DNA from: Candidatus Uhrbacteria bacterium
GTDB taxonomy: Bacteria; Patescibacteriota; Patescibacteriia; UBA9934; GWF2-40-263
DNA: 54,939 bases
Assembly (NCBI GenBank): GCA_026395055.1
Contig: JAPLZK010000002.1
Location: 1-54,939, forward strand
Direction: 5' to 3'
Below are positions 35,179 through 48,348 of this stretch, piece by piece; within the stretch, counting starts at the first letter, position 1; every line of letters starts with the position of its first letter. The translations under genes and the position numbers were made by a program. Below the pieces are notes generated by a model. The model saw only the letters and a list, made by a program, of their open reading frames with translations. It had not been told where the DNA came from and ran no database searches.

Positions 35179-35202
35179 ACCGTTGCTTTCAAGAACGTTT
35201 GA

Positions 35203-35279
35203 GGGCGTGTAGCTCAGGTGGTTAGAGCGCGACACTGATAATGTCGAGGTCGGAGGTTCGAGTCCTCCCACGCCCACCA
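35203..35279 (+). tRNA. tRNA-Ile (anticodon GAU), CCA encoded
   Basis: Acceptor GGGCGTG/CACGCCC, anticodon arm CGACA-CTGATAA-TGTCG, T arm GGAGG-TTCGAGT-CCTCC. Confidence 0.92.
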
Positions 35280-35446
35280 TTCGACTCACTTCGCTCGCTC
35301 ATGGTCTACGACCATGTAATGAGTAATAAGTGAGGCGAATGTCCTGAGCCTGTCGAAGGGCCCAGAGTGTCTTGATAACAACTGTTCATGGTTTATGACC
35401 ATGAGACTGGAAATATTCAAGCGTACAGAAACCACATACAACCCCT

Positions 35447-35521
35447 GCCGGGGTAGCTCAGTGGTAGAGCGAAGGACTGAAAATCCTTGCGTCGCCAGTT
35501 CAATCCTGGCCCTCGGCACCA
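35447..35521 (+). tRNA. tRNA-Phe (anticodon GAA), CCA encoded
   Basis: Acceptor GCCGGGG/CCTCGGC (one G-U pair), anticodon arm AAGGA-CTGAAAA-TCCTT, T arm GCCAG-TTCAATC-CTGGC. Confidence 0.9.
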
Positions 35522-35532
35522 CAGACCTTTTT

Positions 35533-35608
35533 CGGGGCGTAGCGCAGATGGTAGCGCGTCTGGTTTGGGACCAGAAGGCCGCAGGTTCGAATCCTGTCGC
35601 CCCGACCA
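35533..35608 (+). tRNA. tRNA-Pro (anticodon UGG), CCA encoded
   Basis: Acceptor CGGGGCG/CGCCCCG, anticodon arm TCTGG-TTTGGGA-CCAGA, T arm GCAGG-TTCGAAT-CCTGT. Confidence 0.9.
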
Positions 35609-35660: not shown

Positions 35661-35689
35661 AAAAAAATCGAGAACGTGAAGTTCTCGAT
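35661..35689 (-). terminator. intrinsic terminator closing the minus-strand envelope cluster
   Basis: Minus strand: ATCGAGAAC ttcac GTTCTCGAT TTTTTTT. Confidence 0.7.
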
Positions 35690-35696: not shown

Positions 35697-37547
35697 TTAG
35701 TAGCCAGTAACACCTTGTGCTTCGAGCACGCGGAGTTCTTTTGTCCATGCTTCACGATCACGATCTGCGTGTTCCGGATTCGGAAGCAGCGAGCGTCGTG
35801 TGGTGTTCATGTATGCTTGAAGCAGTTGGTAACGACGTGTCGTTTCGATGTCTGCGGGAAGTTGATCGTGAATGAGTCCAAGTACTTCCTCGAGCGTCGC
35901 ATCTTTTTTGCGAATGATAAGCGCATCGAGTTCGCCCTTGAGCAATTGAAATGCTCCGGCGGAATACCCTTTCAATGCGGCCTGGATTTTCCCCCATTCC
36001 TCACCTTCGCGGTTTGGAATGAGATGTTTTACTGGGTGCAATGTCAGTTCAACAAAATCGTCGAAGTCTGCCCCGATCGGATCATCCATCGGAATGATGA
36101 TGCCAAGTCGACCAGGTCGGCGCATGTCGGGCGACAGCAAGTGAAAGCGTGCGCTCATGAGGAGCCACACGACTTTTCCACGCAATCTAGGATCCGACAT
36201 CCATCCTTGAATCGTGCCTGTGAGGCGACGTTCGGTGTCATGTACGTTGGGTCCAACACCACCGAAAACTGTATCTGCTTCGTCTACGAGAATCATGACT
36301 TTTGGAAGCGAGATGAGGATGCGATAAAGCTTTTCCAAAATCACATCCGTTTGTCCAAACCATTGGGAACGGATGTTCTTTAGGACCAGTACGGGCATGC
36401 CAAGAGCTGCCGCAACGGCTTCGAAGAAGAAGGATTTTCCGCCACCGATTGGACCCGCAACACCAATGCCGGTGATCGCATCTTTGCCGGTTGAGATGAG
36501 TCGTGCGTACAACTCATTCTCCCAGAGGTCCTTTTGCTTTCGGCATCCGACAACGTCCGCGATGGAATGGATCGGCTGTTTGAATTCAACCGTTCCTTTT
36601 CTAAGTTGTGACTGGATGTAGTCATCGATTTGCACCACGACATCTTTTGGAGCGACAGGGACTTTGTCGTGGAGTGCACCTTTCAAAAGCTGGCTCAGCT
36701 TTTGTGAATTCAGAGCCATTGTTGCTTCTGCGAGGGCATCCTTTGTACTATAGACGGGCAATACCCCCGTTACCTTCGTTGCTTCAAACCACTCAATGAA
36801 ATGCCTGCGCGCGGTTTCATCCGGCGAAGGGATTTCTATGGTCAAGACTTGCGGCAACGTTGTCACGCGACTGTTCATGAGGCTTACGGATTCCGTGAGC
36901 ATGAGGACCGCGTTGCGGCCATGTGCAAAACTTGGATCCGAGAACCAATCCTGACAGATGGACAATCGCAGCCGATCGGTTTCAGACAGACGAGAGATTT
37001 CCGCTTCCGGAAGAATCATATCTGCCCATTCGATGATCACGATGAGTCTGCATGGTTTTTCTTTCTTGTCTTTCGAGTCGATGAAATTGACCGGGGTCTG
37101 GCAGAAGGCACGCAACAATTGAAGAGCAAGCGCGGGGCGCTCGACGCTCATTGTCATGGTGCGATCAAACACCGCTCCTGGTTCTTCCAACTTCTTGCGG
37201 TCCATGTCTGTTGTCGCAAGTAATTGTTGGATGGCGAGGGTGTTGGAATCCATCCCAGATTTTGCCGCAACCCACGCATCACGCATTTTCTTTTTATCTG
37301 CATCATTTTGGAAACGAATCTGTCGATTCGGTTCGTAGATGATTGGCATAATATCTTCGCGTCCACTCCATTTGCTCGCAAGGTATTCCGTCAAACTGAC
37401 GTATTCCCCATTGTCTCCCTCGTTTTTTCCGGGGAGATAAAACAGATCGTGGACATTTCCGGACAGAACCAAAGAGTTCGATTGTCCTGAGTTCAATACG
37501 CGATTGACCTGTGCGCGAAACGCATGGTCAAATTTCGGATCGATCAT
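35697..37547 (-). CDS. tandem AAA+ ATPase (degenerate N-terminal module + canonical classic-AAA C-terminal module)
   Basis: C-terminal module: GVAGPIGGGKSFF (Walker A), VMILVDEADTVF (Walker B), LLMSARFHLLSPDMRRPGRLG. N-terminal ~370 aa: NSLVLSGNVHDLF and LIVIIEWADMILPE in the equivalent positions, with no P-loop Lys. ATG 37547 overlaps the ABC ATPase stop (ATGA). AAGGAG SD. Confidence 0.85.
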   Translation of the reverse strand: MIDPKFDHAFRAQVNRVLNSGQSNSLVLSGNVHDLFYLPGKNEGDNGEYVSLTEYLASKWSGREDIMPIIYEPNRQIRFQNDADKKKMRDAWVAAKSGMDSNTLAIQQLLATTDMDRKKLEEPGAVFDRTMTMSVERPALALQLLRAFCQTPVNFIDSKDKKEKPCRLIVIIEWADMILPEAEISRLSETDRLRLSICQDWFSDPSFAHGRNAVLMLTESVSLMNSRVTTLPQVLTIEIPSPDETARRHFIEWFEATKVTGVLPVYSTKDALAEATMALNSQKLSQLLKGALHDKVPVAPKDVVVQIDDYIQSQLRKGTVEFKQPIHSIADVVGCRKQKDLWENELYARLISTGKDAITGIGVAGPIGGGKSFFFEAVAAALGMPVLVLKNIRSQWFGQTDVILEKLYRILISLPKVMILVDEADTVFGGVGPNVHDTERRLTGTIQGWMSDPRLRGKVVWLLMSARFHLLSPDMRRPGRLGIIIPMDDPIGADFDDFVELTLHPVKHLIPNREGEEWGKIQAALKGYSAGAFQLLKGELDALIIRKKDATLEEVLGLIHDQLPADIETTRRYQLLQAYMNTTRRSLLPNPEHADRDREAWTKELRVLEAQGVTGY

Positions 37548-38461
37548 TTCAACACTCCTTGTACGTCGCCCGAAGCGACTTGGTTCCAGAAAAGGCAATG
37601 CATTTTCGGATCGAGATCGCGACCTGCGAACACGACTTTGCGCAATTCTTCTGCCTGCGCCATTTCGCGTGTGGCGGCTTTGTCATAGACAATCGTCGCA
37701 CCGGGAAATGATTCGTGTCCTTGATCACGCCAGTTCCAGTGTTTGGAAAAACCGATGACGCGATCTCCAACACTCACAGATTCTTCAAGCGAGTGCGTGA
37801 CCATGATGATGGTGTAGGGCGCAAGAAGTCCCGCGCGCACTGCCTTCATATTTTCCGCGTAAAGATCACGCAACAGTTGCCGCGCATCATCGCGCGTTTC
37901 TTCATCGAGCGCACCGAACGGTTCGTCGAGAAGTAACACTTCTGGTTCCATGATCAGCGCTCGCGCAATCGCGACGCGCTGCTGCATGCCACCTGAGAGT
38001 TCGGACGGAAATCGATTCAGGGCTTCACAGAGGCCAAGCTTTACAAGAAGCGCTTCCGCTTTTGCAAGATGCTCGTGTCGTTTGTGACACCAAGAACCGG
38101 TGATCCATCCAAACGCACGACCCGGAATAGATGTTTCGTTCAGCATGGGGCCGAGCGCAACATTTTCAAGGGCGGTGAGGTGGGGGAACAGAGAATACTT
38201 TTGGTACACCATGCCGCGATCGCGACCGTGTCCGTCTACTTCATGCTCTGCACCAAGGGTGGAGACGAGCATCCGTCCGGAGGACGGGGAGAGGGAACCG
38301 ACCGCAATGTTTAGGAACGTGGACTTTCCACATCCGCTTGAACCAACGACCCCAACGATTTGTCCACGCGCGATTTTGAGGTCGAGTGGAGCGAGAACCT
38401 GTGTGGTTCCGAATCGTCGCGTCATCGCTTCGCATGTGAGGACGATATTGTATTCGCTCAT
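37544..38461 (-). CDS. ABC transporter ATP-binding protein (NitT/TauT-like family)
   Basis: GSSGCGKST (Walker A), MVYQKYSLFPH, LSGGMQQRVAIARAL (signature), LLLDEPFGALD (Walker B). ATGA overlap with the permease stop. Confidence 0.92.
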   Translation of the reverse strand: MSEYNIVLTCEAMTRRFGTTQVLAPLDLKIARGQIVGVVGSSGCGKSTFLNIAVGSLSPSSGRMLVSTLGAEHEVDGHGRDRGMVYQKYSLFPHLTALENVALGPMLNETSIPGRAFGWITGSWCHKRHEHLAKAEALLVKLGLCEALNRFPSELSGGMQQRVAIARALIMEPEVLLLDEPFGALDEETRDDARQLLRDLYAENMKAVRAGLLAPYTIIMVTHSLEESVSVGDRVIGFSKHWNWRDQGHESFPGATIVYDKAATREMAQAEELRKVVFAGRDLDPKMHCLFWNQVASGDVQGVLK

Positions 38462-39402
38462 GAGTTCGCCTCCTTTTTGTTTTGGCGATGGAAGAGGTTT
38501 TGGATCTTATTTAGCATCGCGAGCAGAAATCGATCAACGAAGTCTGGTGGTGTATCACTCTCGTACCAGCGGCACGTGAGTCGTACGATCTTGCGAAAGA
38601 TGTACGAGATAAGGAGTCCAACGACGCCGAGCATCATCACGTACGGGAAGGTCATGAATGTCCGACCCGAACGGTTGAGCTGCATGAATCGGTGGCCAAT
38701 ACCATCGGATCCCACAATCCATTCTGTGCCCATAAGGAACACAATGGCGGGAGGAATCGACTGACGAACAGCCTCGATGATTTGTGGCTTGATTTGTGGG
38801 TAGACCACATACCACGTTACTTCTTGTGGGGATGCACCAAGAGTTTTCGCACTGAAGACATGTTCATCGGAAACACTTTTCGACGCGAGGTAGACGTTTT
38901 TCGTAATCGCCACACAGATACCAAACGCCATGACGCCCCAGAAGAGGGGATTCGTCACGTGGAAGAGGGCGAGAAAGAAAACGGTCATGCCATTTGCCGG
39001 AATATGTTCCACGACTTCCATGATCGGGAGAGCCATGCGGCGAAGATAATCGTAAAGGCCCATGTAGATTCCTACCGTGACGCACAAAAGACTTGTGCCA
39101 CTAATCGCGATAAGTAGCCGTGGGGCAGAAACAAGAAAATCTTTCCACAGAATATGATCTCCGGACTGCGGATCAAGAAACACGAGAAGCTTGAGCCCCT
39201 CAAACAATCGATCAAACCTTGGCACAAGAGGAAATCTCGGCATGGGCGGAATCGTGTTTGTTTCCGAATAGGCAAGTGCTGTGTACACAAGGAACACGAG
39301 CACAAGTCCAAGCACAGAAAAAAACATTCCGAGTTTTGGGGTTAATGGCTTTCGTTGCGTAAAGATCAGCTTGAGTGTTTTTGAAAACACGGACACCTCC
39401 AT
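38458..39402 (-). CDS. ABC transporter permease (NitT/TauT-like family)
   Basis: Multi-TM. EAA-loop-like AKTLGASPQEVTWYVVYPQIKPQIIEAVRQSI. Sits between the SBP and ATPase genes. Confidence 0.88.
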   Translation of the reverse strand: MEVSVFSKTLKLIFTQRKPLTPKLGMFFSVLGLVLVFLVYTALAYSETNTIPPMPRFPLVPRFDRLFEGLKLLVFLDPQSGDHILWKDFLVSAPRLLIAISGTSLLCVTVGIYMGLYDYLRRMALPIMEVVEHIPANGMTVFFLALFHVTNPLFWGVMAFGICVAITKNVYLASKSVSDEHVFSAKTLGASPQEVTWYVVYPQIKPQIIEAVRQSIPPAIVFLMGTEWIVGSDGIGHRFMQLNRSGRTFMTFPYVMMLGVVGLLISYIFRKIVRLTCRWYESDTPPDFVDRFLLAMLNKIQNLFHRQNKKEANS

Positions 39403-39439
39403 TGCTGAATTTCAGTTCATCAGTCTTTCTGACGCGCTG

Positions 39440-39469
39440 AAAAAAAGAGCCAAGAGCGATTCTCTTGGC
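39440..39469 (-). terminator. hairpin + T-run after the SBP gene (internal attenuator/terminator)
   Basis: Minus strand: GCCAAGAG aatcg CTCTTGGC TCTTTTTTT. Confidence 0.55.
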
Positions 39470-39508
39470 AGAAGATTCTGAACCTTGCTTCGCGAGGCGA
39501 GGTGCAGA

Positions 39509-40726
39509 CTAGTTGAGGTAGCTCGCGTCGAAACGCAGCACGGCCGAGGGCGCTTCCGCCTTCGTGCCAAACGCGGTCGGGACAGGGCCCGGAATGGACT
39601 TCGTGACCGTCCGCGAGAATTCATCCGTGAGCGGAATCGATGCCTTGAACTCGGGAGAGCTGAACACGGCTTGCGCCTGGTCCGGCTTGATCGCAAGCGT
39701 GAGCGTGAGCGCGAGTTTGATCACGTCAGGCGCGGTGTTCGAGAAGTTCTTCGACACCGCCGCGAGCGTGGCGCTTTCGGTCGTCGGATTCTGCACGCGA
39801 TTCACCATGGTGGTGTACGCCTCGGCAATCGCCTTCACAGCTTCCTTGCCACCGGGGCGATCGAGCGCCGACTGGCCGACCACGAACATGTCCGTGATCT
39901 CGTACTTGCCGATCATGCTCGAGTTGAACAGGCTCACGACTTCCGGACGCGCCGCCTTGACCTTCAGGGTCTCCGGGCTCCAACCAACGAACGCGCGCAT
40001 GGACTTGTCCTTCGCCGCGAATTGGGTGCTGCCGTCGACCGGGTTCAGGTTCATGAACGGGTAGTCCTTGATGTCGCACTTGTTGATGGTGCAGCCCCGC
40101 CAGTGCAGGTACCGCGAGACCGACATTTCGTCACCGAACACGGGCACGCCTTTCAGCTGGGCCCAGGTCTTGATGTCGGGGTTGGTCTGGATCTGATCCG
40201 CGCCTTCCGAATCGCTGGTTGGGAACACGGCGACGGATGCGTCCTTCACCGTGTCGAAACGCGACTTCGCAACGGACAGGGCGTCCGTGTTGGTAATCAG
40301 GACCGCGTCCACGGTACCGCCTTGGTACTGTTCCATGGTCTTGCCGTAGTCGGACTGCGCAAAGACGATGTCGACGCCATTCTTGCGTTCGTACTCGCCT
40401 TGCTTACCTTCTTCGCCGTTGATGAGCCCGGCCTGATGCGAAGCAGCGAGCAGCGACCAGGTCGTGTACTCACTCCACGCGACCGTGAACTTCGGCAGAT
40501 TCGCGATGACCGCACCGGTCGGATGGGCCGGAAGGGTCGGATTCGGCGCGACGTTTGCGGGCACGGGATTCGCAGCCGCAGTTGCCGCCGGAGCTTCGGC
40601 CGCGGGGGCCTGGGCGACGGGCTCGTCCTTGGGGGCGTCATTCTTTTCGGTCTCGGTCTTGCCGCAGGCGGAAACCGCGAGGGCAAAAACGATGGCCATG
40701 ATGTAACTCGTGTAGCGCTTCAACAT
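39509..40726 (-). CDS. ABC transporter substrate-binding lipoprotein (NMT1/SsuA-like)
   Basis: Lipobox ALAVSAC, Ala/Pro-rich linker, then a periplasmic-binding-protein-like domain. Directly upstream of the permease and ATPase genes. Confidence 0.8.
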   Translation of the reverse strand: MLKRYTSYIMAIVFALAVSACGKTETEKNDAPKDEPVAQAPAAEAPAATAAANPVPANVAPNPTLPAHPTGAVIANLPKFTVAWSEYTTWSLLAASHQAGLINGEEGKQGEYERKNGVDIVFAQSDYGKTMEQYQGGTVDAVLITNTDALSVAKSRFDTVKDASVAVFPTSDSEGADQIQTNPDIKTWAQLKGVPVFGDEMSVSRYLHWRGCTINKCDIKDYPFMNLNPVDGSTQFAAKDKSMRAFVGWSPETLKVKAARPEVVSLFNSSMIGKYEITDMFVVGQSALDRPGGKEAVKAIAEAYTTMVNRVQNPTTESATLAAVSKNFSNTAPDVIKLALTLTLAIKPDQAQAVFSSPEFKASIPLTDEFSRTVTKSIPGPVPTAFGTKAEAPSAVLRFDASYLN

Positions 40727-40886
40727 GTGCAGAACTCCCGTGTCTCAGTCGTAGACCGAAACGTCTGTAGGTTTAGGATCACGACCCGATCCTGGTAGGT
40801 TGGCCACTGTCTGCAGAAGGACATCTCCTGCGTCTAGTGCTGTGTGGGACATTCCCACGAGGCGAGTTCATATGATCTCGACTCGT

Positions 40887-40915
40887 GTAAAAGGGTGATT
40901 GACGAATCAATCACC
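40887..40915 (-). terminator. hairpin + T-run after the pspA-like gene
   Basis: Minus strand: GGTGATTGA ttcg TCAATCACC CTTTTAC. Confidence 0.55.
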
Positions 40916-40932
40916 AGAGGGAAACAAAGGAA

Positions 40933-41775
40933 CTAGTTGAGCACGCCGGTTTCGGTCGTGCCCGCAGCTTTCTCGGCCGGAGCCTTGGCTGCGTCTTCGG
41001 TCTTGACGGCGTGTGCGATCAGAGCCGCAAACTCGTCGTCGGACGCGGGATCGCGATAGGCATCCAGATATTGTGCATCGGAATTCTTGGTGTCCGCGCC
41101 GGCGAGCATGCCAGCCACGCGCGCCTGAGATTCCGTGCGAGCAACGCCTTCTTCGATTTCCTGGAGTACCTTGGAATTGCTTCCGACAGCAGCCAGACCG
41201 GACTCACGATCATGCTGACGCTTCTCTTCCTGTGCCTGAATGACACGAGAGATGAGTTCGTCTGCCTTCGCGCCGGTTTTCTCGATCTGTGCATTTTGTC
41301 GACGCAGATTCAGCATCATGTTGTCGATCTGCTTGTCATCTTCCACGATGCCGGCCTTGAGTTGATCAACCAGGGCCTGCTTGGAAGTGATCTCCTTGGT
41401 CTTTTCATCGTTCTTGTCACGATGCTTCTGCATTTCCTGGTCGGCTGCCATCTCTTCGGCGGAATTCTTGCCGGCCTTCGCGAGTTCTGTGGCACGTGCC
41501 GTGATTCGCTGCCTGGCAGAGGCACGCACCTTTTCCGCATCGGCAATTTCTTGCGAGAGCTGAATGATCTTCGTACGCTTCTTTGTCTTTTCGAGATCAC
41601 GTCCCGCGATCGAGTTCGAATACTCGCGCGCGTTGTGACGCATTTGCTCGACTTCTTCGTCAACGACCGCACGAATCACGTTCGGATCGGAGTTCATGGT
41701 CTTGCGAGCCTCGTCGATCCGACCAGTCATCGCATAACCCATTGCCTTGAAAAACCTGCCAATCGCTCGGAACAT
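40933..41775 (-). CDS. pspA: PspA/IM30-family (ESCRT-III superfamily) protein
   Basis: N-terminal amphipathic MFRAIGRFFKAMGYAMTGRIDEA, followed by ~220 aa of heptad-rich helix with the PspA-like layout, then an acidic/Ala-rich tail. AGGAG SD. Confidence 0.75.
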   Translation of the reverse strand: MFRAIGRFFKAMGYAMTGRIDEARKTMNSDPNVIRAVVDEEVEQMRHNAREYSNSIAGRDLEKTKKRTKIIQLSQEIADAEKVRASARQRITARATELAKAGKNSAEEMAADQEMQKHRDKNDEKTKEITSKQALVDQLKAGIVEDDKQIDNMMLNLRRQNAQIEKTGAKADELISRVIQAQEEKRQHDRESGLAAVGSNSKVLQEIEEGVARTESQARVAGMLAGADTKNSDAQYLDAYRDPASDDEFAALIAHAVKTEDAAKAPAEKAAGTTETGVLN

Positions 41776-41831
41776 AGAGGACTCCTGTGTGTCGAAGGTT
41801 ATTCGACGGTGGTTTGTCTGAGTTGTTCAAG

Positions 41832-42611
41832 TCAGACGGGCTTGTCCGAGGGGGTTTCCCTCAGATACTCGGCATCGCTCTCTGCGATACCGCTTCGGAG
41901 ACGATCCTCCGCACGCTCTGCAACACCGAACAAGGTGCGTATTTCGTCTAGATTCTGTTCCAGGGCTTTTCCACCCATGCTACTTGCCGTCAATCGCTTG
42001 GCAGCAAGTTCTTGTGCTCGGGCATACTGACTCCCGAGTTCTTGTAAGGCACGATCGACGTCATCGAGAAGGCGGTCCGCCGACTTTTTGACTTCGAGTT
42101 GTGCCGATCTTGGCATGCGAGAAGCAGATTGACGCATGTCAAAGGATTTTTCCAACCACTTGATTGCGTTTGCAAACAATCCTTCGATCTTGTTTGTGAT
42201 TTCCGCCACGATGACGTCATCCAATCCTTCTTTCCAGGACGCGTCATGCAGAAATGTCGCGCGGACATTCACAAGATCGTCATAGAGGTGTTCGTCACGT
42301 GTGTCATTGTCCGAAGCGAGTTTGTTGCGTAGCGAATCGAGTTTGCTCTGCTGAGCGTTCACGATTCCACTTCGAACTTTCTCTACTTCTGTTGTGATAA
42401 TTCCATCTCGCTTTACGATCCAGCGATACGAAAGTGTTCCGAGGCTTGTAAGCAAGCAAGCGATTCCTCCAAAGAGCCAGGCTCCCGGATTATCCGCAAG
42501 AAATGCTGCATAGCTGAACGGAATGGCGGATGCGCCAAGAGGAAAAAGTATGCTCCAATGTCCGAAGAGTTCCACTCGGACTTTTTGCTTCAACACATTC
42601 TCGTCGAGCAT
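41832..42611 (-). CDS. 2-TM membrane protein with cytoplasmic coiled-coil domain (PspA-adjacent)
   Basis: Two hydrophobic helices (WSILFPLGASAIPFSYAAF, WLFGGIACLLTSLGTL), then ~190 aa predicted helical. 56 nt upstream of pspA. Confidence 0.7.
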   Translation of the reverse strand: MLDENVLKQKVRVELFGHWSILFPLGASAIPFSYAAFLADNPGAWLFGGIACLLTSLGTLSYRWIVKRDGIITTEVEKVRSGIVNAQQSKLDSLRNKLASDNDTRDEHLYDDLVNVRATFLHDASWKEGLDDVIVAEITNKIEGLFANAIKWLEKSFDMRQSASRMPRSAQLEVKKSADRLLDDVDRALQELGSQYARAQELAAKRLTASSMGGKALEQNLDEIRTLFGVAERAEDRLRSGIAESDAEYLRETPSDKPV

Positions 42612-42621
42612 CCGAGCCCCC

Positions 42622-44169
42622 TTAGTAGGGTCGTTGGGAGAGTTGAAACGTCACGCTTTGTGCCGTACCACTCTGCGTTTGAGAAGGTTCCGCGCTCGTT
42701 TTCACACGCGCGACCGCAATGCCGTTTGAAATCAATTCATCCACCACACTCTTTGAGCGCGCTTTCGCGAGTTCAAGGTTTGCGGCAGGGTCGCCGTCGT
42801 TGCGAGCATGACCGATCACCGTGAGGTAATAGGTTGGCCAGGCCTTCAGACGATCCGCAACGTCTTTCACGTCGCGCGTTCCTTGGATTTCAATGTCTGC
42901 TTTGCCGCGAGCGAAACTGATCGCTCGAGCATCCATGTCGCCAACGGTGATGAGGGATTTCCACTCGTCGTCCGTAAGGGCAGGGAGATTTGCCACACCG
43001 CGTACGATTTCATCTTGGGCTTGGCCCGGATGAAAGTTCGCTTGCTGCATGGCGCGCAGTGTTCCGTCGTAGTACAGGTCTTGCTCGTGTCCATCCGTTG
43101 GATTGGACTTGAGCTTGCCCGTCTTCAGAAGAAACTGCGAGATACTTGCGATCATTTCGCGCATGGTCGGAAGTCCGTGGAGGTCGGCAGCGGACAGGAG
43201 CCCGAACTGCGCGTAGTTTTCCATCGTGTTCTTCCACTGAATCCCATTCGCGATTTTTTTCGCTTGTTCTTCCGTGAGGGTATCGCCATTCAATTTCGCG
43301 TCGTCCATCACAAGCTTTGTCATGCCGTTTGGTGCAACCTGGTAGGTGTGCAACGCACGGAAGTAAGCTTCCTCGACCGCACGCACCACAGTGGGTTGTT
43401 CGATCAAGAATTTGCGATTGACCGCGAGGACGTCGACGATGGCCCCGTTGACCTTCGACGTGTCGTAAATCTGAATGACGCCCGGAAGGGCAAGAGCTTT
43501 CGACAGCGCCGGTTCCCAAAGGACATACGCAGTCTTTGCATTCTTGTCTGCCTTCTTCAGTTGATCCAAAACATCGTCCGGACTCTTTGCGCTCACAAGC
43601 CAGTCTTGTGAACCGAGAGCGGGAAGCATGTTTGCAACCAGTTGTCGCGCAAGCGTTTCGCTTGGCGAGTCTCCGGTCGCAACAATCTTCGTCTGAGCGC
43701 GATTCAGTGCGGCTGCATTTTGAACGGCTTGCTTGTAAGCAACCATTCCGTCTGCGCCGTTTGAGTCATCGATGAGAAGAAAGATCGTGACGTCGGCAAG
43801 AGCACTCTCTGAAATACCAGCGACGATATCACTGTCGATCGTGAAGACAGCCATATTGAGATCGCCTTTTTTGAGCGCCTTCATCCGATTGCCATACATG
43901 TCCGTGTCGTCGGCGGCGGGAGCAATCACTTGCACCCCAATTTCTGAGCGACCCAGTTGGTCACGGAAATTCGGTGAGCGGAGGACGGCGTAGCCCGGGA
44001 ACGAATCCGCACCAATGCGAACATTGGTTTTGTAATTCGTTTGCGAGCTTGTCTGTGCGACGCGTGCTTCTTGGATTTTCGGAAGCAGCAATTTCTTGGC
44101 TGCGAATCCGAGTCCGAAGACAAGGCCGATCACGACGAACGTGAGAATGATCTTCTGTTTGTTTTCCAT
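42622..44169 (-). CDS. membrane-anchored solute-binding-domain / OmpA_C-like fusion protein
   Basis: N-terminal TM IILTFVVIGLVFGLGFAA, an NMT1-like PBP domain, and a C-terminal OmpA-like YYLTVIGHARNDGDPAANLELAKARSKSVVDELISNGI. Confidence 0.8.
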   Translation of the reverse strand: MENKQKIILTFVVIGLVFGLGFAAKKLLLPKIQEARVAQTSSQTNYKTNVRIGADSFPGYAVLRSPNFRDQLGRSEIGVQVIAPAADDTDMYGNRMKALKKGDLNMAVFTIDSDIVAGISESALADVTIFLLIDDSNGADGMVAYKQAVQNAAALNRAQTKIVATGDSPSETLARQLVANMLPALGSQDWLVSAKSPDDVLDQLKKADKNAKTAYVLWEPALSKALALPGVIQIYDTSKVNGAIVDVLAVNRKFLIEQPTVVRAVEEAYFRALHTYQVAPNGMTKLVMDDAKLNGDTLTEEQAKKIANGIQWKNTMENYAQFGLLSAADLHGLPTMREMIASISQFLLKTGKLKSNPTDGHEQDLYYDGTLRAMQQANFHPGQAQDEIVRGVANLPALTDDEWKSLITVGDMDARAISFARGKADIEIQGTRDVKDVADRLKAWPTYYLTVIGHARNDGDPAANLELAKARSKSVVDELISNGIAVARVKTSAEPSQTQSGTAQSVTFQLSQRPY

Positions 44170-44247
44170 TGCCTGCTTCCTCCTTGTTCGATTAAGGTTT
44201 ACTTTCGAACTTAGTCCACATCCGAGACATTCTTGGACATGAGCTAA

Positions 44248-44274
44248 GAGAAAAGGTCGTTTCAGAGAAACGAC
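44248..44274 (-). terminator. hairpin + T-run after the VWA gene
   Basis: Minus strand: GTCGTTT ctctg AAACGAC CTTTTCTC. Confidence 0.5.
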
Positions 44275-44286
44275 AGAGTCTAGTCT

Positions 44287-44320
44287 CCCTCGCCTTCACA
44301 AGGAGGGGGCTGGGGGGTGG
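44287..44320 (-). repeat. C-tract + GC hairpin 3'-UTR element, copy 1
   Basis: Plus strand CCCTCGCCTTCACAAGGAGGGGGCTGGGGGGTGG, abutting the VWA stop codon. Other copies at 47769-47806 and (inverted) 52891-52924. Confidence 0.8.
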
Positions 44321-45373
44321 TCAGTTTTGCACGCGCACCATCTGGCGGCGACGCACGGTGAGAAAACTCACGAGGCAAAGAGCGATGAGGCCCGTCGGAA
44401 CGGGATTGATCCCCGTAGGCGAAGCACTGCAACCTTTTTCCTTGCCTTGGTTCTGATCTGCAGGAGCTGCTTGATCCGTCGGAGCGTTTCCGTTCGGAGC
44501 GGCATTCTGTCCTGCGGGAGCATTCTTTTGCTCTGCAGCTTTCTTGGCGGCGTCGTATTCTTCTTTGGAAACGCCAATGGGCCAATAGCGCAGATCCATA
44601 TTGGTGACTTCCTTGAGCCAAGCATTTGCCACGTCGTCCGGCACTCCCTTCAGCAGATCGTAATCCACTTGGGCAGCGGCGGCATTGGTGGTTTCCACTT
44701 GGACGGCGGTCTTCAGGGCGCGGTCGAGCGCGATCGCATCATTCGCTTTCCAGTAACGGCGCGCGATGGTTGCGAGCGGATGCCTTTCCTCCATGCCGAC
44801 GCCGATGACATCGAGTTGAATGCCACTCGACATCACCTCGGGCGCGTACGCCTTCATCAGCTGATCTTCTTCTGCGGGCGTTGCAACACCGTCGGTCACG
44901 ACCAAGAGTTGGTACGTGCCACGATTGTGCTGTGCACTGCGAGCTTCGATCAATGCGTCCGCCGCTTTCTTGATGGAGGTTCCAAGAGGAGTTCCACCAC
45001 CGGGATTGATTTGATCGATCGCTGCCTTGATCTGATCTTTGTTCATGGGAGCGATCGGCGCGAGCCAATCGATCGTGATCTTGCGACCCCAGTCATCTCC
45101 AACGAACAGCAGAACGCCGACATGGGTGGTTTGTGGAATCTGATCGATCACGCTTTTCAGCGCGTTCTTTGCAACCGTGATTTTCCGATCATTGCTGCCA
45201 GGACTGATTGCATCCTTCATGGAACCGGAACCGTCAATCACGATCGCGATGCAATCGTGTGTGGCGGATTCAGCGGAGGTTGGAGGATTTCCTGCACCGT
45301 CGTACGGAAGCGCGAACGCATTCGTCGAGATGAACAGGGTCGTGAGAATCAGTGCGGTGTGAAGCGTCTTCAT
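44321..45373 (-). CDS. secreted von Willebrand factor type A (VWA) protein with C-terminal Cys + TM + RRR tail
   Basis: Signal peptide MKTLHTALILTTLFISTNAFA. MIDAS residues in IAIVIDGSGSM, GGGTPLGTS, LLVVTDG. C-terminus GCSASPTGINPVPTGLIALCLVSFLTVRRRQ. Confidence 0.85.
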   Translation of the reverse strand: MKTLHTALILTTLFISTNAFALPYDGAGNPPTSAESATHDCIAIVIDGSGSMKDAISPGSNDRKITVAKNALKSVIDQIPQTTHVGVLLFVGDDWGRKITIDWLAPIAPMNKDQIKAAIDQINPGGGTPLGTSIKKAADALIEARSAQHNRGTYQLLVVTDGVATPAEEDQLMKAYAPEVMSSGIQLDVIGVGMEERHPLATIARRYWKANDAIALDRALKTAVQVETTNAAAAQVDYDLLKGVPDDVANAWLKEVTNMDLRYWPIGVSKEEYDAAKKAAEQKNAPAGQNAAPNGNAPTDQAAPADQNQGKEKGCSASPTGINPVPTGLIALCLVSFLTVRRRQMVRVQN

Positions 45374-45387
45374 TTGTGCACCTCCTC

Positions 45388-47340
45388 TTACAGCTCGTAG
45401 TCGGAAGCGGTGGCAGCCTCGGCCGAAACTCGGACGATACTGAACTCCACACGACGATTCTTCGCAGCTTCTTCCGGAATCCGAGGCTTCACGATGAACG
45501 GGTCGCTCGCGCCAGCGCCGATCGGAGTGATCTGGCTCTCGTCGAGTTTCACACCCTTCTTTGCTGCATACGCAATGAGCGCACGGCTCACTTGCTTTGC
45601 ACGATCATACGAAAGTGCTGTCGCGGCTTCCGCAATGCGCGAGGGACTGTCCCCCTGCTTTGCGGCGTCCGTACTGTTGCGCGCTTCGTCGATGTTCGGA
45701 TTGGTCGCAAGAGCGAGGACTTGCTTCGCGTTCTTCAGGTCGAGCGGTTTCCCTTCGATCGAATAGGTGAAGTTGCCAGACGTTCCGGCTTGCTTCACGA
45801 GCCCTTTCTCCATGCCCTTCTTCAGGATCGTGGAGACAAGCAGCGTCGTGTCTGTGTGTCCGCGGATCACGATGGTCGCGCGGGAATACTTTGGTGCGAG
45901 CACCAGGACTTCGTCGAATTCCTTCTTGTAGTTGGTCTCGTCGAACTCGACCTGGTTCTCCGCAAAGTAGGCAACAAACGAGAGCATGGTGTTGCCACCG
46001 AGCGAGCCCGTTTGGTTCATCTGTTCCACTTCCGCTTGGGTTGCTTCTGTGTTGAAGTGCGCGGTGCGCTTCACGTTGCCCGAGAGCAGGTCCTTGAAGA
46101 TCGGATGTGTCCACTCGACGTTCGCACTTTGGATGTCGACACGCTTGGTGGCGTTGTCGAGTTCTGCTGCGAGATCGTTCGAGAGGTTGGAGAAGGACTT
46201 GTGACCGATGACAGACGTCGGATTGAAGAACTCCACGTTGCCGGCAAGGCCGACAAATGCTGCGTCCGACCAGAGGCCGTACGTTGCGGCTTCATCCGGA
46301 CACGTGTCCTTCCACGTCTGCATGGTGAATGCGAGCAGGCCACGGAACTCTTCCGAACCTTTCGCCTTGTTGTCGTAGTCGTGCTGGAGAGCCTTCACGG
46401 CTTCCACTGACTTCAGGAACGCCGCAGCGAACTTCACGACCGTATCATGATGCTCCACGTTGAACTTGTGGCTCACAAAGTACATGTCGGGAATGGACGT
46501 GCGCCGATCGATGGTGGAGACGAGCACGTGCGCGCCCTTCACCGTTCCTTCTGCGCCTGTGCCAACATGCGCCGCATCCGCGCCTGTGAGCGCGTCGCGG
46601 TCCGGACTGATCACGAATGCGCAATCAACTTCCGGATGCGCTTTGAAATATTCCGCGGGGCCGTCTTTTGCCGTCACGTCCTTCGTGAATTTGATCTTCA
46701 CGTTCTTCGAGGTCCGCTTGACGTCCTTCAGGATATCGATGAGGAAGCTCTCGTGCGGGCCGTCCTTCTGGAGAGCGACGGTCGCTGTGTCGAGGTCGCT
46801 GATGCTCTTGATTTTCTCGCGGCAGACCACGTGGTCGCCCATGGAGTACGTCAATTGCACAGCAGGTTCCGCACACAGATCCGCGTCCGGCGTCGGACAC
46901 AGTTCGCCGTCGAACTTGCCGATCATCGGATACGTGCCGCGCAGGAACGTGACCTTGCCCGCCTTGTAGTCGTCGATTTGTGCGCGAACGTTGTCGTTCG
47001 GGCTTTCGACGAATTCAATGCAGAGGCCGTACTGGTCGTAGATGCTACCAATACGTGTCTTCAGACCGCCGTTGCCATAGAAGGCAGCCATTTCGGCGCC
47101 CCAGATGATCATGCCAGCCTTCAGACATTCGCCTTTCTTTTCTTCACCACCCGGCAACTTTGCCTGGATGCCTGGGGCTGCGGGCGCCGCTTGCGCGGGA
47201 GCCTGTGCCTGAGGAGTGGCTTGTGCCGGCGCGCTTTGCGTCGTCGTGTTGCCGTTTTGATTCGGGACCTTCTTGCAGCCGCCGATGACACTCGCGAGCG
47301 CGAGCATCACAGCAAACAGAATCATGCGAGCGTTTCGCAT
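45388..47340 (-). CDS. lipoprotein with solute-binding-like domain fused to an OmpA_C-like domain
   Basis: Lipobox LASVIGGC, Ala/Pro/Gln linker, PBP-like region. C-terminal OmpA-like ATIVIRGHTDTT...LSYDRAKQVSRALIAY...NRRVEFSIVRV. Confidence 0.8.
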   Translation of the reverse strand: MRNARMILFAVMLALASVIGGCKKVPNQNGNTTTQSAPAQATPQAQAPAQAAPAAPGIQAKLPGGEEKKGECLKAGMIIWGAEMAAFYGNGGLKTRIGSIYDQYGLCIEFVESPNDNVRAQIDDYKAGKVTFLRGTYPMIGKFDGELCPTPDADLCAEPAVQLTYSMGDHVVCREKIKSISDLDTATVALQKDGPHESFLIDILKDVKRTSKNVKIKFTKDVTAKDGPAEYFKAHPEVDCAFVISPDRDALTGADAAHVGTGAEGTVKGAHVLVSTIDRRTSIPDMYFVSHKFNVEHHDTVVKFAAAFLKSVEAVKALQHDYDNKAKGSEEFRGLLAFTMQTWKDTCPDEAATYGLWSDAAFVGLAGNVEFFNPTSVIGHKSFSNLSNDLAAELDNATKRVDIQSANVEWTHPIFKDLLSGNVKRTAHFNTEATQAEVEQMNQTGSLGGNTMLSFVAYFAENQVEFDETNYKKEFDEVLVLAPKYSRATIVIRGHTDTTLLVSTILKKGMEKGLVKQAGTSGNFTYSIEGKPLDLKNAKQVLALATNPNIDEARNSTDAAKQGDSPSRIAEAATALSYDRAKQVSRALIAYAAKKGVKLDESQITPIGAGASDPFIVKPRIPEEAAKNRRVEFSIVRVSAEAATASDYEL

Positions 47341-47439
47341 TGGGACTCCTTCTCCTGTCGTTAATTGGAGAATACATCGTGACAGGCCGATGCACTCTTG
47401 TCCTCTAAAAGGAACGTTCGGAAAAATTCCGAAGTCAAG

Positions 47440-47468
47440 AACTTACCTCAAAATTCAATTTTTGTCAA
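47440..47468 (-). promoter_or_regulatory. sigma70-type promoter of the envelope cluster
   Basis: Minus strand: TTGACA (47468-47463), 17 nt, TAAGTT (47445-47440), about 100 nt upstream of ATG 47340. Confidence 0.55.
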
Positions 47469-47811: not shown

Positions 47812-48348
47812 TTACTCTGCTGCAGGTGCTTCTGGAGCTGGTTCTTCTGCAACAGGTGCAGCTTCTTCCGTAACGGGAGCTGGAGTTTCTGCTGCAGCTT
47901 TTGCTGTTGCTTTCTCAGCTTCTGCGGCTTCTTTTGCAGCGGCTGCTTCTGCCTTTGCGGCTTCTGCGGCTGCAGCTTTTGCTTCTTCTTCAGCTAATTT
48001 AGCTGCTTCTGCCTTCTTTTGTGCAGCTTCGTCTTTTGCTTTTTTGTCTGCGAGGTCTTTTTCCATGGTCGCTTTCTTGCGATCACTGATGTGAGACTTT
48101 GCAATTTTCTTTCCTTCTACGAATTTGTGGTCAAGGAAGATGTTCCAAACGGTTGGGGAACATTGTGCTCCTTTTTCAAGCCAATGCTTTACTTCTTCTG
48201 CGACGACAACCAATTCTTTTGAACGTGGGTTGTAGTGGCCAAGAATAGCTGTGGATTTTGCCCATGGATCACGTGTTTTTGGTTGAACAATAACGCGGTA
48301 AATTGGAGCTTTTTTCTTTCCAACGCGGGAAAGGCGAATGGTCAACAT
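47812..48348 (-). CDS. rpsP: 30S ribosomal protein S16 with ~90-aa Ala/Glu/Lys-rich C-terminal extension
   Basis: MLTIRLSRVGKKKAPIYRVIVQPKTRDPW..., then a low-complexity AEAAKLAEEEAKAAAAEAAK tail. Confidence 0.92.
   Translation of the reverse strand: MLTIRLSRVGKKKAPIYRVIVQPKTRDPWAKSTAILGHYNPRSKELVVVAEEVKHWLEKGAQCSPTVWNIFLDHKFVEGKKIAKSHISDRKKATMEKDLADKKAKDEAAQKKAEAAKLAEEEAKAAAAEAAKAEAAAAKEAAEAEKATAKAAAETPAPVTEEAAPVAEEPAPEAPAAE

What the first reader, a model, noticed from the sequence alone, without database searches (positions are those of the whole stretch)
35697..47468. PspA/IM30 (ESCRT-III-like) gene embedded in a nine-gene envelope cluster with a tandem AAA+ ATPase, an ABC importer, two PBP-OmpA fusions and a VWA protein
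Seen in the sequence: nine co-directional minus-strand genes, all but one with a GGAGG-type SD. Gene junctions range from a 4-nt overlap to about 200 nt. The cluster is preceded by TTGACA-17-TAAGTT (47440-47468) and closed by a hairpin + T-run (35661-35689). Internal hairpin + T-run signals at 44248-44274, 40887-40915 and 39440-39469 suggest 3-4 nested transcription units.

Gene order:
- lipoprotein with an NMT1-like solute-binding domain fused to an OmpA_C-like domain
- secreted VWA protein (DGSGSM MIDAS)
- TM-anchored paralogous PBP-OmpA fusion
- 2-TM coiled-coil protein
- PspA/IM30-family protein
- lipoprotein SBP
- ABC permease
- ABC ATPase
- tandem AAA+ ATPase

Established knowledge: PspA/IM30/Vipp1 belong to the ESCRT-III superfamily of membrane-remodelling polymers. 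Archaeal and eukaryotic ESCRT-III is recycled by the AAA+ ATPase Vps4. The classical proteobacterial psp operon has no such unfoldase (PspF is a sigma54 activator).

Inference: this looks like one functional module. It would couple an ESCRT-III-like polymer and a dedicated AAA+ ATPase to solute import and to wall-tethered binding proteins, acting as an envelope maintenance or repair machine.

Caveat, from memory and unverified: a comparative-genomics survey of Psp systems predicted operons combining PspA, a two-module AAA+ ATPase, an ABC ATPase/permease and PBP-OmpA proteins. I know of no experimental characterisation, and none in a CPR-like host.
Basis: partly seen in the sequence, partly recalled or inferred. 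Interest (0 to 1): 0.85.

Follow-up and report, generated by a model that had tools for sequence, protein, structure and literature searches.

The report
Bacterial PspA–AAA+ envelope gene cassette
This is a real nine-gene operon, conserved in the same order across many bacterial phyla, that pairs a divergent PspA/Vipp1 (ESCRT-III-like) membrane protein with its own tandem AAA+ ATPase, an ABC importer and cell-wall-tethered binding proteins; the type was predicted by comparative genomics in 2024 but has never been tested experimentally.

Summary
Nine co-directional minus-strand genes lie at the stated coordinates, with the stated ribosome-binding sites, junctions and hairpins.

- **PspA-like gene (40933-41775):** invisible to Pfam as a single sequence. 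Family profiles hit Vipp1/PspA structures (E 6e-9 and 4.5e-7), its AlphaFold model's best Foldseek hits are Vipp1, and 17 of 49 relatives hit PF04012.
- **AAA+ gene (35697-37547):** an internal duplication. The C-terminal module is an intact classical AAA; the N-terminal one is degenerate.
- **Conservation:** the nearest relatives are Candidatus Uhrbacteria (CPR). Of 51 species-representative loci with enough flank, 42 keep at least 7 of the 9 genes in order, across more than seven phyla. Thirteen loci keep only an adjacent PspA-AAA+ pair.
- **Prior art:** Ravi et al. 2024 (PMC11237479) predicted this operon type. I found no experimental work.
- **Corrections:** the VWA protein is C-terminally membrane-anchored rather than free. 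The two OmpA fusions are not detectably paralogous. The 2-TM protein shows no ESCRT-III/Snf7 signal.
- **New and unexplained:** in the Uhrbacteria-like lineage the 2-TM/PspA pair is hyper-divergent (27-36% identity) inside an otherwise 64-83% identical cassette.
- **Mechanism:** AAA+ remodelling of a PspA polymer is inferred, not shown.

The parts
47440..47468 (-). Promoter-like site TTGACA-17-TAAGTT upstream of g1
   Evidence: Read directly. The -35 element is perfect; the -10 matches 3 of 6 positions (T1, A2, T6). The consensus scanner does not call it. In relative L004 a TTGACA-16-TAACAT site with an upstream TG sits at the equivalent place.
45388..47340 (-). g1: lipoprotein with an NMT1/SsuA-like solute-binding domain and a C-terminal OmpA-like peptidoglycan-binding domain (650 aa)
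   Evidence: ORF. Lipobox VIGGC. OmpA hit of 27.3 bits at residues 570-629 and a weak SsuA_fam hit. Homologues at 39-41% identity carry PF09084 NMT1. It is gene 1 of the conserved cassette.
44321..45373 (-). g2: exported VWA protein with a DGSGS MIDAS motif, a low-complexity linker and a C-terminal TM helix plus basic tail (350 aa)
   Evidence: VWA E 1.2e-13. Signal peptide and C-terminal LIALCLVSFLTVRRRQ. The same TM-plus-basic-tail ending occurs in nearly all homologues.
44256..44274 (-). Hairpin with a moderate T tail between g2 and g3
   Evidence: -8.8 kcal/mol, z -4.3.
42622..44169 (-). g3: protein with an N-terminal TM anchor, a solute-binding domain and an OmpA-like domain (515 aa)
   Evidence: OmpA E 4.5e-11. 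TIGR03427-like hit E 1.4e-12 at residues 122-303. PDB OmpA-like/Pal/YiaD hits at residues 413-493.
41832..42611 (-). g4: 2-TM hairpin anchor with a roughly 195-aa cytoplasmic all-helical domain (259 aa). It is a family of its own and the conserved neighbour of g5.
   Evidence: 277 cluster representatives in a full HMMER search. AlphaFold model pLDDT 88, all helical. No Pfam, PDB or Foldseek assignment. It lies next to g5 in the cassettes and in the g4-g5 dyads L001-L003.
40933..41775 (-). g5: divergent PspA/IM30/Vipp1-family protein of the ESCRT-III superfamily (280 aa)
   Evidence: Profile A1 against PDB hits Vipp1 6zvr at E 6.3e-9. Profile A4 hits at E 4.5e-7. The top seven Foldseek hits of the AlphaFold model are Vipp1. 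17 of 49 relatives hit PF04012. It has an N-terminal amphipathic segment and a long helical hairpin.
40887..40915 (-). Hairpin with a weak T tail after g5
   Evidence: (sequence): -11.8 kcal/mol, z -2.9. Only four T follow the stem, so the scanner did not call it.
39509..40726 (-). g6: lipoprotein solute-binding protein of the NitT/TauT (TIGR03427/SsuA-like) class (405 aa)
   Evidence: TIGR03427 E 9.5e-29, below its cut-off. Lipobox AVSAC. No close solved structure.
39449..39469 (-). Intrinsic-terminator-like hairpin after g6
   Evidence: -13.1 kcal/mol, T7 tail. It is conserved in L010 at 8070-8092.
38458..39402 (-). g7: ABC importer permease (314 aa)
   Evidence: BPD_transp_1 E 6e-16. TauC/SaoP/NtrB/SsuC-like.
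37544..38461 (-). g8: ABC ATPase (305 aa). Its reading frame overlaps those of g7 and g9 by 4 nt each.
   Evidence: ABC_tran E 1.3e-31. Overlaps.
35697..37547 (-). g9: tandem AAA+ ATPase (616 aa), with a degenerate N-terminal module and an intact classical AAA C-terminal module
   Evidence: AAA E 6e-12. The best PDB matches are VAT, AFG2 and p97 D1; Vps4 is weaker. Walker A GPIGGGKS, Walker B LVDEAD, pore loop SQWFGQ and RRPGR are conserved. hhalign of the N half against the C half gives probability 90.7%, E 1.3e-6.
35667..35689 (-). Intrinsic terminator closing the operon
   Evidence: -11.7 kcal/mol, z -5.1, T7 tail. It is conserved in L010 at 11859-11880.
40998..42509 (-). Hyper-divergent core: from about codon 35 of g4 to about codon 259 of g5
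   Evidence: blastn against the Uhrbacteria relatives L010 and L011 finds 66-79% nucleotide identity on both sides and nothing inside this segment. Amino-acid identity is 36% for g4 and 27% for g5, against 64-83% for the other seven genes.

Best explanation
**What it is.** The region is one conserved nine-gene envelope operon of a Uhrbacteria-like (CPR) bacterium. It is an instance of the PspA-plus-tandem-AAA+ operon type that Ravi et al. 2024 predicted.

**Cytoplasmic side (inferred mechanism).**
- g5, a divergent PspA/Vipp1-type ESCRT-III-superfamily protein, binds the membrane through its N-terminal amphipathic segment and polymerises there.
- g4, the 2-TM protein, is its membrane anchor or nucleator, analogous to LiaI for LiaH or PspB/C for PspA.
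- g9 is a hexameric classical AAA+ unfoldase. It has an inactive N-terminal module and an active C-terminal module with an aromatic pore loop.
- g9 would extract or remodel g5 subunits, most likely by engaging the conserved extreme C-terminal tail of g5. This would play the part that Vps4 plays for archaeal and eukaryotic ESCRT-III, although g9 is not a Vps4 orthologue.

**Outer side.**
- A type I ABC importer (g6 binding lipoprotein, g7 permease, g8 ATPase) works with two membrane-anchored binding-protein/OmpA fusions (g1, g3). These fusions bridge the membrane to peptidoglycan.
- g2 is a membrane-anchored VWA protein.
- Together these would link solute uptake or sensing, and wall attachment, to membrane stabilisation.

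**Shown versus inferred.** Shown here: the gene identities, the tandem AAA+ architecture, the strict synteny across phyla, and the existence of a minimal g5-g9 pair. Inferred: all physical interactions, the direction of the AAA+/PspA relationship, the solute, and the physiological trigger. The confidence of 0.6 is for the package; the identities and the conservation alone would rate about 0.9, and the AAA+-disassembles-PspA step about 0.5.
For: **g5 is PspA/IM30.**
- Profile hits to Vipp1/PspA structures.
- Foldseek top hits are Vipp1.
- PF04012 is the most frequent Pfam hit among relatives, in 17 of 49.

**g9 is a tandem AAA+.**
- Intact Walker A and B motifs, pore loop and arginine fingers in the C-terminal module. 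The N-terminal module has lost the GK[ST] motif, has its catalytic DE pair replaced by EW, and has lost the arginines.
- An internal repeat is detected by hhalign.
- It matches the classical AAA clade.

**Functional coupling.**
- Exact order 1-9 in 30 loci.
- At least 7 of 9 genes collinear in 42 of 51 loci from more than seven phylum-level groups. L004, L007, L008 and L009 agree.
- The g5-g9 dyad stands alone with unrelated flanks in 13 loci.
- The g4-g5 dyad stands alone in L001-L003.
- g4 and g5 accelerate together in the CPR lineage.
- g7/g8 and g8/g9 overlap by 4 nt, implying translational coupling of the transporter ATPase and the AAA+ protein.

**Other support.**
- g5 carries lineage-specific conserved C-terminal tails: ETGVLN in Uhrbacteria-like loci and LPE elsewhere.
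- The prior independent prediction proposes the same logic (PMC11237479).
Against: - There is no experimental or interaction evidence of any kind.
- g9 is closer to Cdc48/VAT/AFG2 D1 than to Vps4 and has no MIT domain.
- In E. coli the PspA-AAA+ relationship runs the other way: PspA inhibits PspF (PMC7619361).
- g4 shows no detectable ESCRT-III, Snf7 or PspA similarity.
- The binding-protein ligand is unknown.
- The g5 model is confident only for the helical hairpin (pLDDT 72 overall).
- Long-range synteny could also reflect co-regulation alone.
Confidence: 0.6

Rival explanations
1. There are two or three independent machines that are merely co-regulated. One is a NitT/TauT-type ABC importer with accessory wall-tethered binding proteins. 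The other is a separate PspA-like/AAA+ membrane-stress pair. Both would be induced by the same stress, for example osmotic or envelope stress, without physical coupling.
For: - The g5-g9 pair occurs alone in 13 loci, so it does not need the transporter.
- The three longer spacers with hairpins recur at the same junctions (g2|g3, g5|g6, g6|g7) in L004, L008 and L009. This suggests sub-operons.
- The transport genes look like ordinary importer parts.
Against: - The same nine genes keep the same order in 42 of 51 loci across distant phyla.
- g9 is separated from g5 by the transporter genes and overlaps g8 by 4 nt. That layout is hard to maintain without selection on the whole unit.
Confidence: 0.22
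2. The AAA+ protein is the effector and the PspA-like protein is its regulator or adaptor, as PspA is for PspF. On this view g9 would extract, unfold or assemble membrane or envelope proteins such as g4, g2, g3 or the permease. g5 would gate or recruit it at damaged membrane.
For: - g9 resembles Cdc48/VAT/AFG2-type segregases more than Vps4.
- E. coli PspA is a documented inhibitor of an AAA+ protein (PMC7619361).
- Several cassette products are single-pass or tail-anchored membrane proteins.
Against: - In all other domains of life, ESCRT-III-superfamily polymers are substrates of their adjacent classical AAA ATPase (PMC10936438).
- The minimal dyad contains only g5 and g9.
Confidence: 0.15
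3. The adjacency is fortuitous, or g5 is only a generic coiled-coil protein rather than a PspA relative.
For: - Pfam does not hit g5 as a single sequence.
- Coiled coils give spurious matches; SMC and other coiled-coil hits appear.
Against: - Profile E-values of 6e-9 and 4.5e-7 go specifically to Vipp1/PspA. The alignment spans roughly residues 39-250, from the first long helix to the shared C-terminal acidic motif.
- PF04012 is the top family among relatives.
- Synteny is strict.
Confidence: 0.02

Closest known systems
The PspA / tandem AAA+ / ABC / PBPB-OmpA operon type predicted by Ravi et al. 2024 (mSystems, PMC11237479; example OGG56892.1, Candidatus Handelsmanbacteria)
   Same: - PspA homologue.
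- Two-module AAA+ protein with an inactive N-terminal module.
- ABC ATPase and permease.
- Signal-bearing binding protein fused to OmpA.
- A membrane-anchored helical protein.
- The same proposed logic: ATP-dependent membrane remodelling linked to solute transport.
   Different: - The published example has six genes in another order: PspA, PBPB-OmpA, permease, ABC ATPase, TM-Snf7, AAA-AAA.
- Here there are nine genes in a fixed order, adding a VWA protein, a second binding-protein/OmpA fusion and a separate binding lipoprotein.
- That nine-gene form is the majority form in my sample.
- The paper calls the membrane protein a divergent Snf7. I could not reproduce that for g4, and I could not check whether g4 is the same family as their protein.
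- The host here is CPR (Uhrbacteria-like). Handelsmanbacteria is not in the Patescibacteria group.
Archaeal and eukaryotic ESCRT-III with Vps4 (CdvB/CdvC; Snf7/CHMP with VPS4)
   Same: An ESCRT-III-superfamily protein is encoded with a classical-clade AAA ATPase that has an aromatic pore loop. A conserved C-terminal tail on the polymer subunit could serve as the docking motif.
   Different: - g9 has no MIT domain, and carries an inactive N-terminal AAA module that single-module Vps4 lacks.
- It scores better against Cdc48/VAT/AFG2 D1 (E about 4e-12) than against Vps4 (E about 2e-5).
- g5 is on the PspA/Vipp1 branch, not the Snf7 branch.
- Recent reviews state that bacteria lack a Vps4-like partner (PMC7619361; PMC10936438).
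Classical Psp and Lia systems (E. coli PspF-ABC; B. subtilis LiaIH)
   Same: A PspA-family effector together with a small integral membrane partner encoded next to it. g4 is analogous to PspB/C or LiaI.
   Different: - There is no PspF-type sigma-54 activator, no PspB/PspC/LiaI/LiaF domains and no Toastrack.
- The AAA+ protein here is a classical-clade unfoldase type, not an NtrC-type enhancer-binding protein.
Vipp1/IM30 of cyanobacteria and chloroplasts
   Same: It is the best sequence and structure match for g5. Both share the helical hairpin followed by further helices and the C-terminal acidic motif.
   Different: - Identity is only 15-20%.
- The hairpin tip of g5 is about 25 residues longer.
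- The genomic context is different.

Membership tests
PspA/IM30/Vipp1 family (PF04012; ESCRT-III superfamily), for g5 | Significant sequence-profile similarity to family members | tested here: met
   PF04012 does not hit g5 itself. The family profile A1 hits Vipp1 6zvr at E 6.3e-9 and profile A4 hits at E 4.5e-7. 17 of 49 relatives hit PF04012, best E 4.4e-5.
PspA/IM30/Vipp1 family (PF04012; ESCRT-III superfamily), for g5 | Fold: N-terminal amphipathic helix, long alpha-helical hairpin, then further helices | tested here: met
   The AlphaFold model has helices at 3-15, 19-27, 31-100, 113-191, 200-226 and beyond, with pLDDT above 90 over the hairpin. The top seven Foldseek PDB hits are Vipp1, best E 2.4e-4. 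Confidence is low outside the hairpin.
PspA/IM30/Vipp1 family (PF04012; ESCRT-III superfamily), for g5 | Membrane binding and homo-polymerisation into rings, rods or carpets | not testable with these tools
   Needs biochemistry or electron microscopy.
Classical AAA clade (PF00004), for the g9 C-terminal module | Walker A GxxGxGK[ST], Walker B hhhhDE, aromatic pore loop 1, and second region of homology with arginine fingers | tested here: met
   GPIGGGKS, (I/L)VDEAD, SQWFGQ and SPDMRRPGR are invariant or nearly invariant in 25 homologues. PF00004 E 6e-12. PDB hits to VAT, AFG2 and p97.
Tandem AAA+ with an inactive N-terminal module (Ravi et al. 2024), for g9 | The N-terminal half is a degenerate copy of the AAA module | tested here: met
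   hhalign of the N half against the C half gives probability 90.7%, E 1.3e-6, over 183 columns. IIEWAD aligns to LVDEAD, DWFSDP to GWMSDP, and the arginine fingers are lost. There is no GK[ST] motif in the N half.
Vps4 (ESCRT-IV / meiotic-clade AAA), for g9 | N-terminal MIT domain, a single AAA module, and closest similarity to Vps4/katanin/spastin | tested here: not met
   No MIT hit. There are two modules. Vps4 hits (E about 2e-5) are far weaker than Cdc48/VAT/AFG2 hits (E about 4e-12). g9 may work like Vps4 but is not a member.
Snf7/ESCRT-III, for g4 (as proposed for the TM+Snf7 protein in PMC11237479) | Profile or fold similarity to Snf7, CHMP, CdvB or PspA | tested here: not met
   The 52-sequence profile gives no ESCRT-III hit in PDB. 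hhalign against the g5 profiles gives probability 1-2%. No Snf7 family appears among the 25 most frequent Pfam families, and only 2 of 52 members give weak PF04012 hits. Foldseek on a pLDDT-88 model gives best E 0.6. All-helical folds are hard for these tools, so the proposal is unsupported rather than excluded.
PspA/AAA+/ABC/PBPB-OmpA operon type (PMC11237479) | Co-directional neighbourhood containing PspA, a tandem AAA+, an ABC ATPase, a permease and a binding-protein/OmpA fusion | tested here: met
   All components are present in the window, and the neighbourhood recurs in 42 of 51 loci. Description.
Classical proteobacterial Psp system | PspF (sigma-54 enhancer-binding AAA+) and the PspB/PspC partners | tested here: not met
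   No such domains occur in any of the nine products.
Type I ABC importer (NitT/TauT-like), for g6-g8 | Binding protein, BPD_transp_1 permease and ABC_tran ATPase | tested here: met
   PF00528 E 6e-16, PF00005 E 1e-31 and TIGR03427-like E 9.5e-29. The substrate is not identifiable.
OmpA_C-like peptidoglycan-binding domain, for g1 and g3 | PF00691 match | tested here: met
   g3 scores 43.4 bits. g1 scores 27.3 bits against a cut-off of 27.2, over the C-terminal half of the domain only. PDB OmpA/Pal hits support g3. g1 is borderline; its homologues show only faint OmpA hits.

The most novel reading that the evidence does not exclude
Many bacteria, in at least seven phyla and including CPR, possess a functional analogue of the ESCRT-III/Vps4 pair. 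In it a PspA-branch polymer would be recycled by a dedicated tandem classical AAA+ unfoldase that recognises the polymer's C-terminal tail. The pair would be built into a trans-envelope complex in which wall-tethered binding proteins and an ABC importer couple peptidoglycan or solute status to membrane remodelling. In the Uhrbacteria lineage the polymer and its anchor form a fast-evolving, possibly exchanged, core.
Probability: 0.35. Interest if true: 0.8.

Novelty: new member of a known kind. Interest (0 to 1): 0.58.

Why it matters
How bacterial ESCRT-III-like polymers (PspA, Vipp1) are disassembled or regulated is an open question. A 2025 review still states that a Vps4-like ATPase appears absent from bacteria (PMC7619361).

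This cassette supplies a concrete candidate: a PspA-family protein encoded with its own classical AAA+ ATPase. The pairing is strict enough that a two-gene version exists. An AAA+ relative occurs in 554 species-representative genomes.

The PspA subfamily involved mostly escapes Pfam, so domain-based censuses will under-count it.

The fixed association with wall-tethered binding proteins, a VWA protein and an ABC importer suggests an unexplored link between solute sensing or uptake, wall attachment and membrane repair.

For CPR bacteria, spending about 11.7 kb on this cassette points to an important envelope function.

The caveat is that the idea is already published as a prediction, so the value here lies in consolidating it and making it testable.

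Tried and rejected
- **Single-sequence Pfam and NCBIfam on g5 and g4:** no PspA or Snf7 hit even at E<=10. Profiles and models were needed instead.
- **g4 as ESCRT-III/Snf7:** profile against PDB, hhalign against both g5 profiles, Pfam on 52 members, and Foldseek on a confident model were all negative.
- **Anti-phage defence system:** PADLOC gave only domain-level noise.
- **Ligand identification for the binding proteins:** no informative solved relative was found for g6, or for the binding-protein domains of g1 and g3.
- **Paralogy of g1 and g3:** no pairwise similarity.
- **Regulatory RNA in the long spacers:** Rfam found only the 16S rRNA gene and tRNAs in the window.
- **Sigma-70 promoter scan:** no site passes the scanner in the cluster. 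Promoter evidence is therefore weak.
- **Literature search for experimental work on this operon type:** none found.
- **Checking OGG56892.1:** I could not retrieve the Handelsmanbacteria locus or the OGG56892.1 sequence, so I could not test whether g4 belongs to the same family as the published TM+Snf7 protein.

Full report
**1. The observation**

I number them g1 to g9 from the promoter end.

- Eight of the nine start codons are preceded by a GGAG-type ribosome-binding site; g7 is not.
- The junctions are 14, 151, 10, 56, 206 and 106 nt, plus two 4-nt overlaps at g7/g8 and g8/g9.
- The 616-aa reading of g9 (ATG at 37547) matches the length of the listed homologues.
- The four hairpins all fold much better than shuffled controls, with z from -2.9 to -5.1 and 0 of 200 shuffles as good.
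- The hairpins after g6 and g9 carry T7 tails. They recur almost unchanged at the same positions in the Uhrbacteria relative L010.
- The hairpin after g5 has only four T and is not called by the scanner.
- The proposed promoter TTGACA-17-TAAGTT is there, but its -10 element is weak and the scanner does not call it. L004 has a better site at the equivalent place.

**2. What the products are**

Standard domain searches confirm most of the calls:
- g2: VWA, with DGSGS.
- g3: OmpA. g1 is borderline.
- g7: BPD_transp_1.
- g8: ABC_tran.
- g9: AAA.
- g6: resembles TIGR03427/SsuA binding proteins.
- g1: its NMT1-type binding domain is seen through homologues at about 40% identity.

The key gene, g5, gives no PF04012 hit even at E<=10. 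Further evidence places it in the family:
- A profile of its seven word-search homologues hits Vipp1/PspA structures at E 6.3e-9.
- A 49-sequence profile hits at 4.5e-7. In that alignment g5 residue 39 pairs with Vipp1 residue 30, and there is an insertion of about 25 residues at the hairpin tip.
- The AlphaFold model has pLDDT above 90 over the hairpin. Its top seven Foldseek PDB hits are Vipp1.
- PF04012 is the commonest Pfam hit among relatives, in 17 of 49.

g5 is therefore a divergent PspA/IM30 member that mostly escapes Pfam.

g9 is a tandem AAA+ protein:
- The C-terminal module keeps Walker A (GPIGGGKS), Walker B (VDEAD), an aromatic pore loop (SQWFGQ) and RRPGR.
- The N-terminal half aligns to the C-terminal half (hhalign probability 90.7%, E 1.3e-6). 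It has lost the P-loop lysine, the catalytic glutamate and the arginine fingers.
- The active module is nearer to VAT/Cdc48/AFG2 D1 than to Vps4, and there is no MIT domain.

g4 is a 2-TM hairpin with a confidently predicted all-helical cytoplasmic domain (pLDDT 88). It belongs to a family of 277 cluster representatives. I found no similarity to Snf7, ESCRT-III or PspA by any route.

g2 and nearly all its homologues end in a TM helix plus a basic tail. It is therefore an anchored exoprotein rather than a free one.

**3. Conservation**

- The same nine genes in the same order occur in L004, L007, L008 and L009.
- A scan of one genome per GTDB species found 554 loci encoding a g9 relative.
- The closest are Candidatus Uhrbacteria at 73% and 64% identity. 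Uhrbacteria belong to the Patescibacteria/CPR group.
- I annotated 89 fetched loci with iterated HMMs built from the window proteins.
- Thirty loci show the exact order 1-9.
- Of the 51 genome-scan loci with at least 9 kb upstream of g9, 42 keep at least 7 of the 9 genes collinear. By record label they are 21 Verrucomicrobia, 4 Planctomycetes, 3 Uhrbacteria, 3 Desulfobacterota/Deltaproteobacteria, 2 Sumerlaeota, 1 Acidobacteria and 1 CSSED10-310, with the remaining 7 carrying unclassified labels or, in one case, an archaeal label.
- Five of these loci, and eight shorter ones, carry only g5 immediately followed by g9, with unrelated flanks.
- L001-L003 carry g4-g5 without g9.

The core partnerships are therefore g4-g5 and g5-g9. 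The nine-gene cassette is the majority form.

**4. Prior knowledge**

Ravi et al. 2024 (PMC11237479) describe the following:
- PspA co-occurring with a two-module AAA+ protein whose N-terminal module is inactive.
- Longer operons that add an ABC ATPase, a permease, a PBPB-OmpA protein and a membrane-anchored "divergent Snf7".
- The example is OGG56892.1 from Candidatus Handelsmanbacteria, which is not a CPR phylum.

Elsewhere in the literature:
- A 2025 review still says a Vps4-like ATPase appears absent in bacteria (PMC7619361).
- Makarova et al. 2024 confine ESCRT systems to archaea and eukaryotes.
- Popp et al. 2022 do not mention the association.
- I found no experimental work.

**5. Mechanism**

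The best-supported reading runs as follows.
- g5 polymerises on the cytoplasmic face of the membrane.
- g4 anchors or nucleates it.
- g9 remodels or disassembles it with ATP, probably through the conserved extreme C-terminal tail of g5. That tail is ETGVLN in Uhrbacteria-like loci and LPE elsewhere.
- Outside the membrane, g1 and g3 tie the membrane to peptidoglycan through OmpA-like domains while presenting binding-protein folds.
- g2 offers a metal-dependent adhesion site.
- g6-g8 import an unknown small solute.

All interactions are inferred. The rivals are independent but co-regulated modules, and a segregase model in which g5 regulates g9 as PspA regulates PspF.

**6. An unexpected extra**

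Within the Uhrbacteria-like group the cassette is 64-83% identical in seven genes, but only 36% in g4 and 27% in g5 (window against L010).

Among 1,035 pairs of loci from other phyla, g5 identity never falls below 49% and tracks or exceeds g9 identity.

At the DNA level, homology to L010 and L011 stops at about 42509 and resumes at about 40998. This leaves the first ~35 codons of g4, the last ~22 codons of g5 and the downstream spacer conserved.

Three explanations remain open: relaxed constraint, diversifying selection, or replacement of the segment. The joint behaviour of g4 and g5 supports the view that they are partners.

**7. Verdict**

This is a real, well-conserved and uncharacterised system, correctly read by the first stage apart from a few details. 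It is a new member, and the commonest architecture, of an operon type already predicted in the literature. It is of solid interest because it makes testable the question of how bacteria recycle PspA polymers.

Noticed in passing
window 40998-42509 (g4 codon ~35 to g5 codon ~259), against L010 and L011: The g4-g5 core is hyper-divergent inside an otherwise conserved cassette in the Uhrbacteria-like lineage. g4 is 36% and g5 27% identical, against 64-83% for the other seven genes. blastn homology breaks sharply at both ends. In 1,035 pairs of loci from other phyla, g5 identity never falls below 49%.
   Followed up: partly
window 40933-40998 (g5 C-terminus); alignment A5: After a low-complexity linker, g5 ends in a lineage-specific conserved tail. 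It is TETGVLN in the window, P0003, L010 and L011, and (S/A)LPE in Verrucomicrobia, Planctomycetes and Acidobacteria. This looks like a short docking motif, possibly for the AAA+ protein.
   Followed up: no
window 35697-47340 against the rest; L004, L008-L011, L072: The cassette is GC-richer than its surroundings: 0.545 against 0.474 in the window. The excess is 4-9 points in the six low-GC relatives checked, is smaller (about 2.5 points) in L007 and L048, and is absent in the high-GC hosts L015 and L030. This could reflect compositional constraint or old horizontal transfer.
   Followed up: partly
L014, L024, L032, L033, L035, L047, L060, L066, L068, L073, L075, L084, L029: A minimal two-gene version exists, with the PspA-like gene immediately followed by the tandem AAA+ gene and variable flanks. 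It occurs in Hydrogenedentes, Nitrospiraceae, Planctomycetes, Acidobacteria and some Verrucomicrobia.
   Followed up: partly
L006 3750-6389: A more distant PspA-like gene (P0007) is followed by two small ORFs and a gene called as a 321-aa AAA protein. My HMM annotation matched the AAA+ profile twice in this locus. This may be a third architecture.
   Followed up: no
window 31519-35608: A complete 16S rRNA gene lies at 31519-33009. It is followed by about 2.2 kb containing ORFs with no Pfam hit, at 33983-34663 (+) and 34585-35157 (-). Next come tRNA-Ile, tRNA-Phe and tRNA-Pro at 35203-35608. No 23S rRNA gene is found anywhere in the window.
   Followed up: partly
window 47812-48348 (-): Ribosomal protein S16 carries a C-terminal extension of about 110 aa rich in Ala, Glu and Lys. 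The protein is 178 aa, and the Pfam S16 domain covers only residues 8-64.
   Followed up: no
window 47417-47433 (-): A small hairpin followed by CCTTTT lies in the putative 5' leader, between the promoter-like site and the g1 ribosome-binding site. Its fold is only marginally better than shuffles (z -2.0).
   Followed up: partly
L038, L059, L049: Contigs that carry the cassette or its 3' part are labelled Bathyarchaeia, Woesearchaeota and Bifidobacteriaceae. These are probably binning or labelling errors rather than true archaeal or actinobacterial occurrences.
   Followed up: no
window 37544-38461 (g8): The ABC ATPase has a C-terminal extension of about 65 aa beyond the ABC_tran domain, with no family assignment. 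Its stop codon overlaps the AAA+ start codon (ATGA).
   Followed up: no
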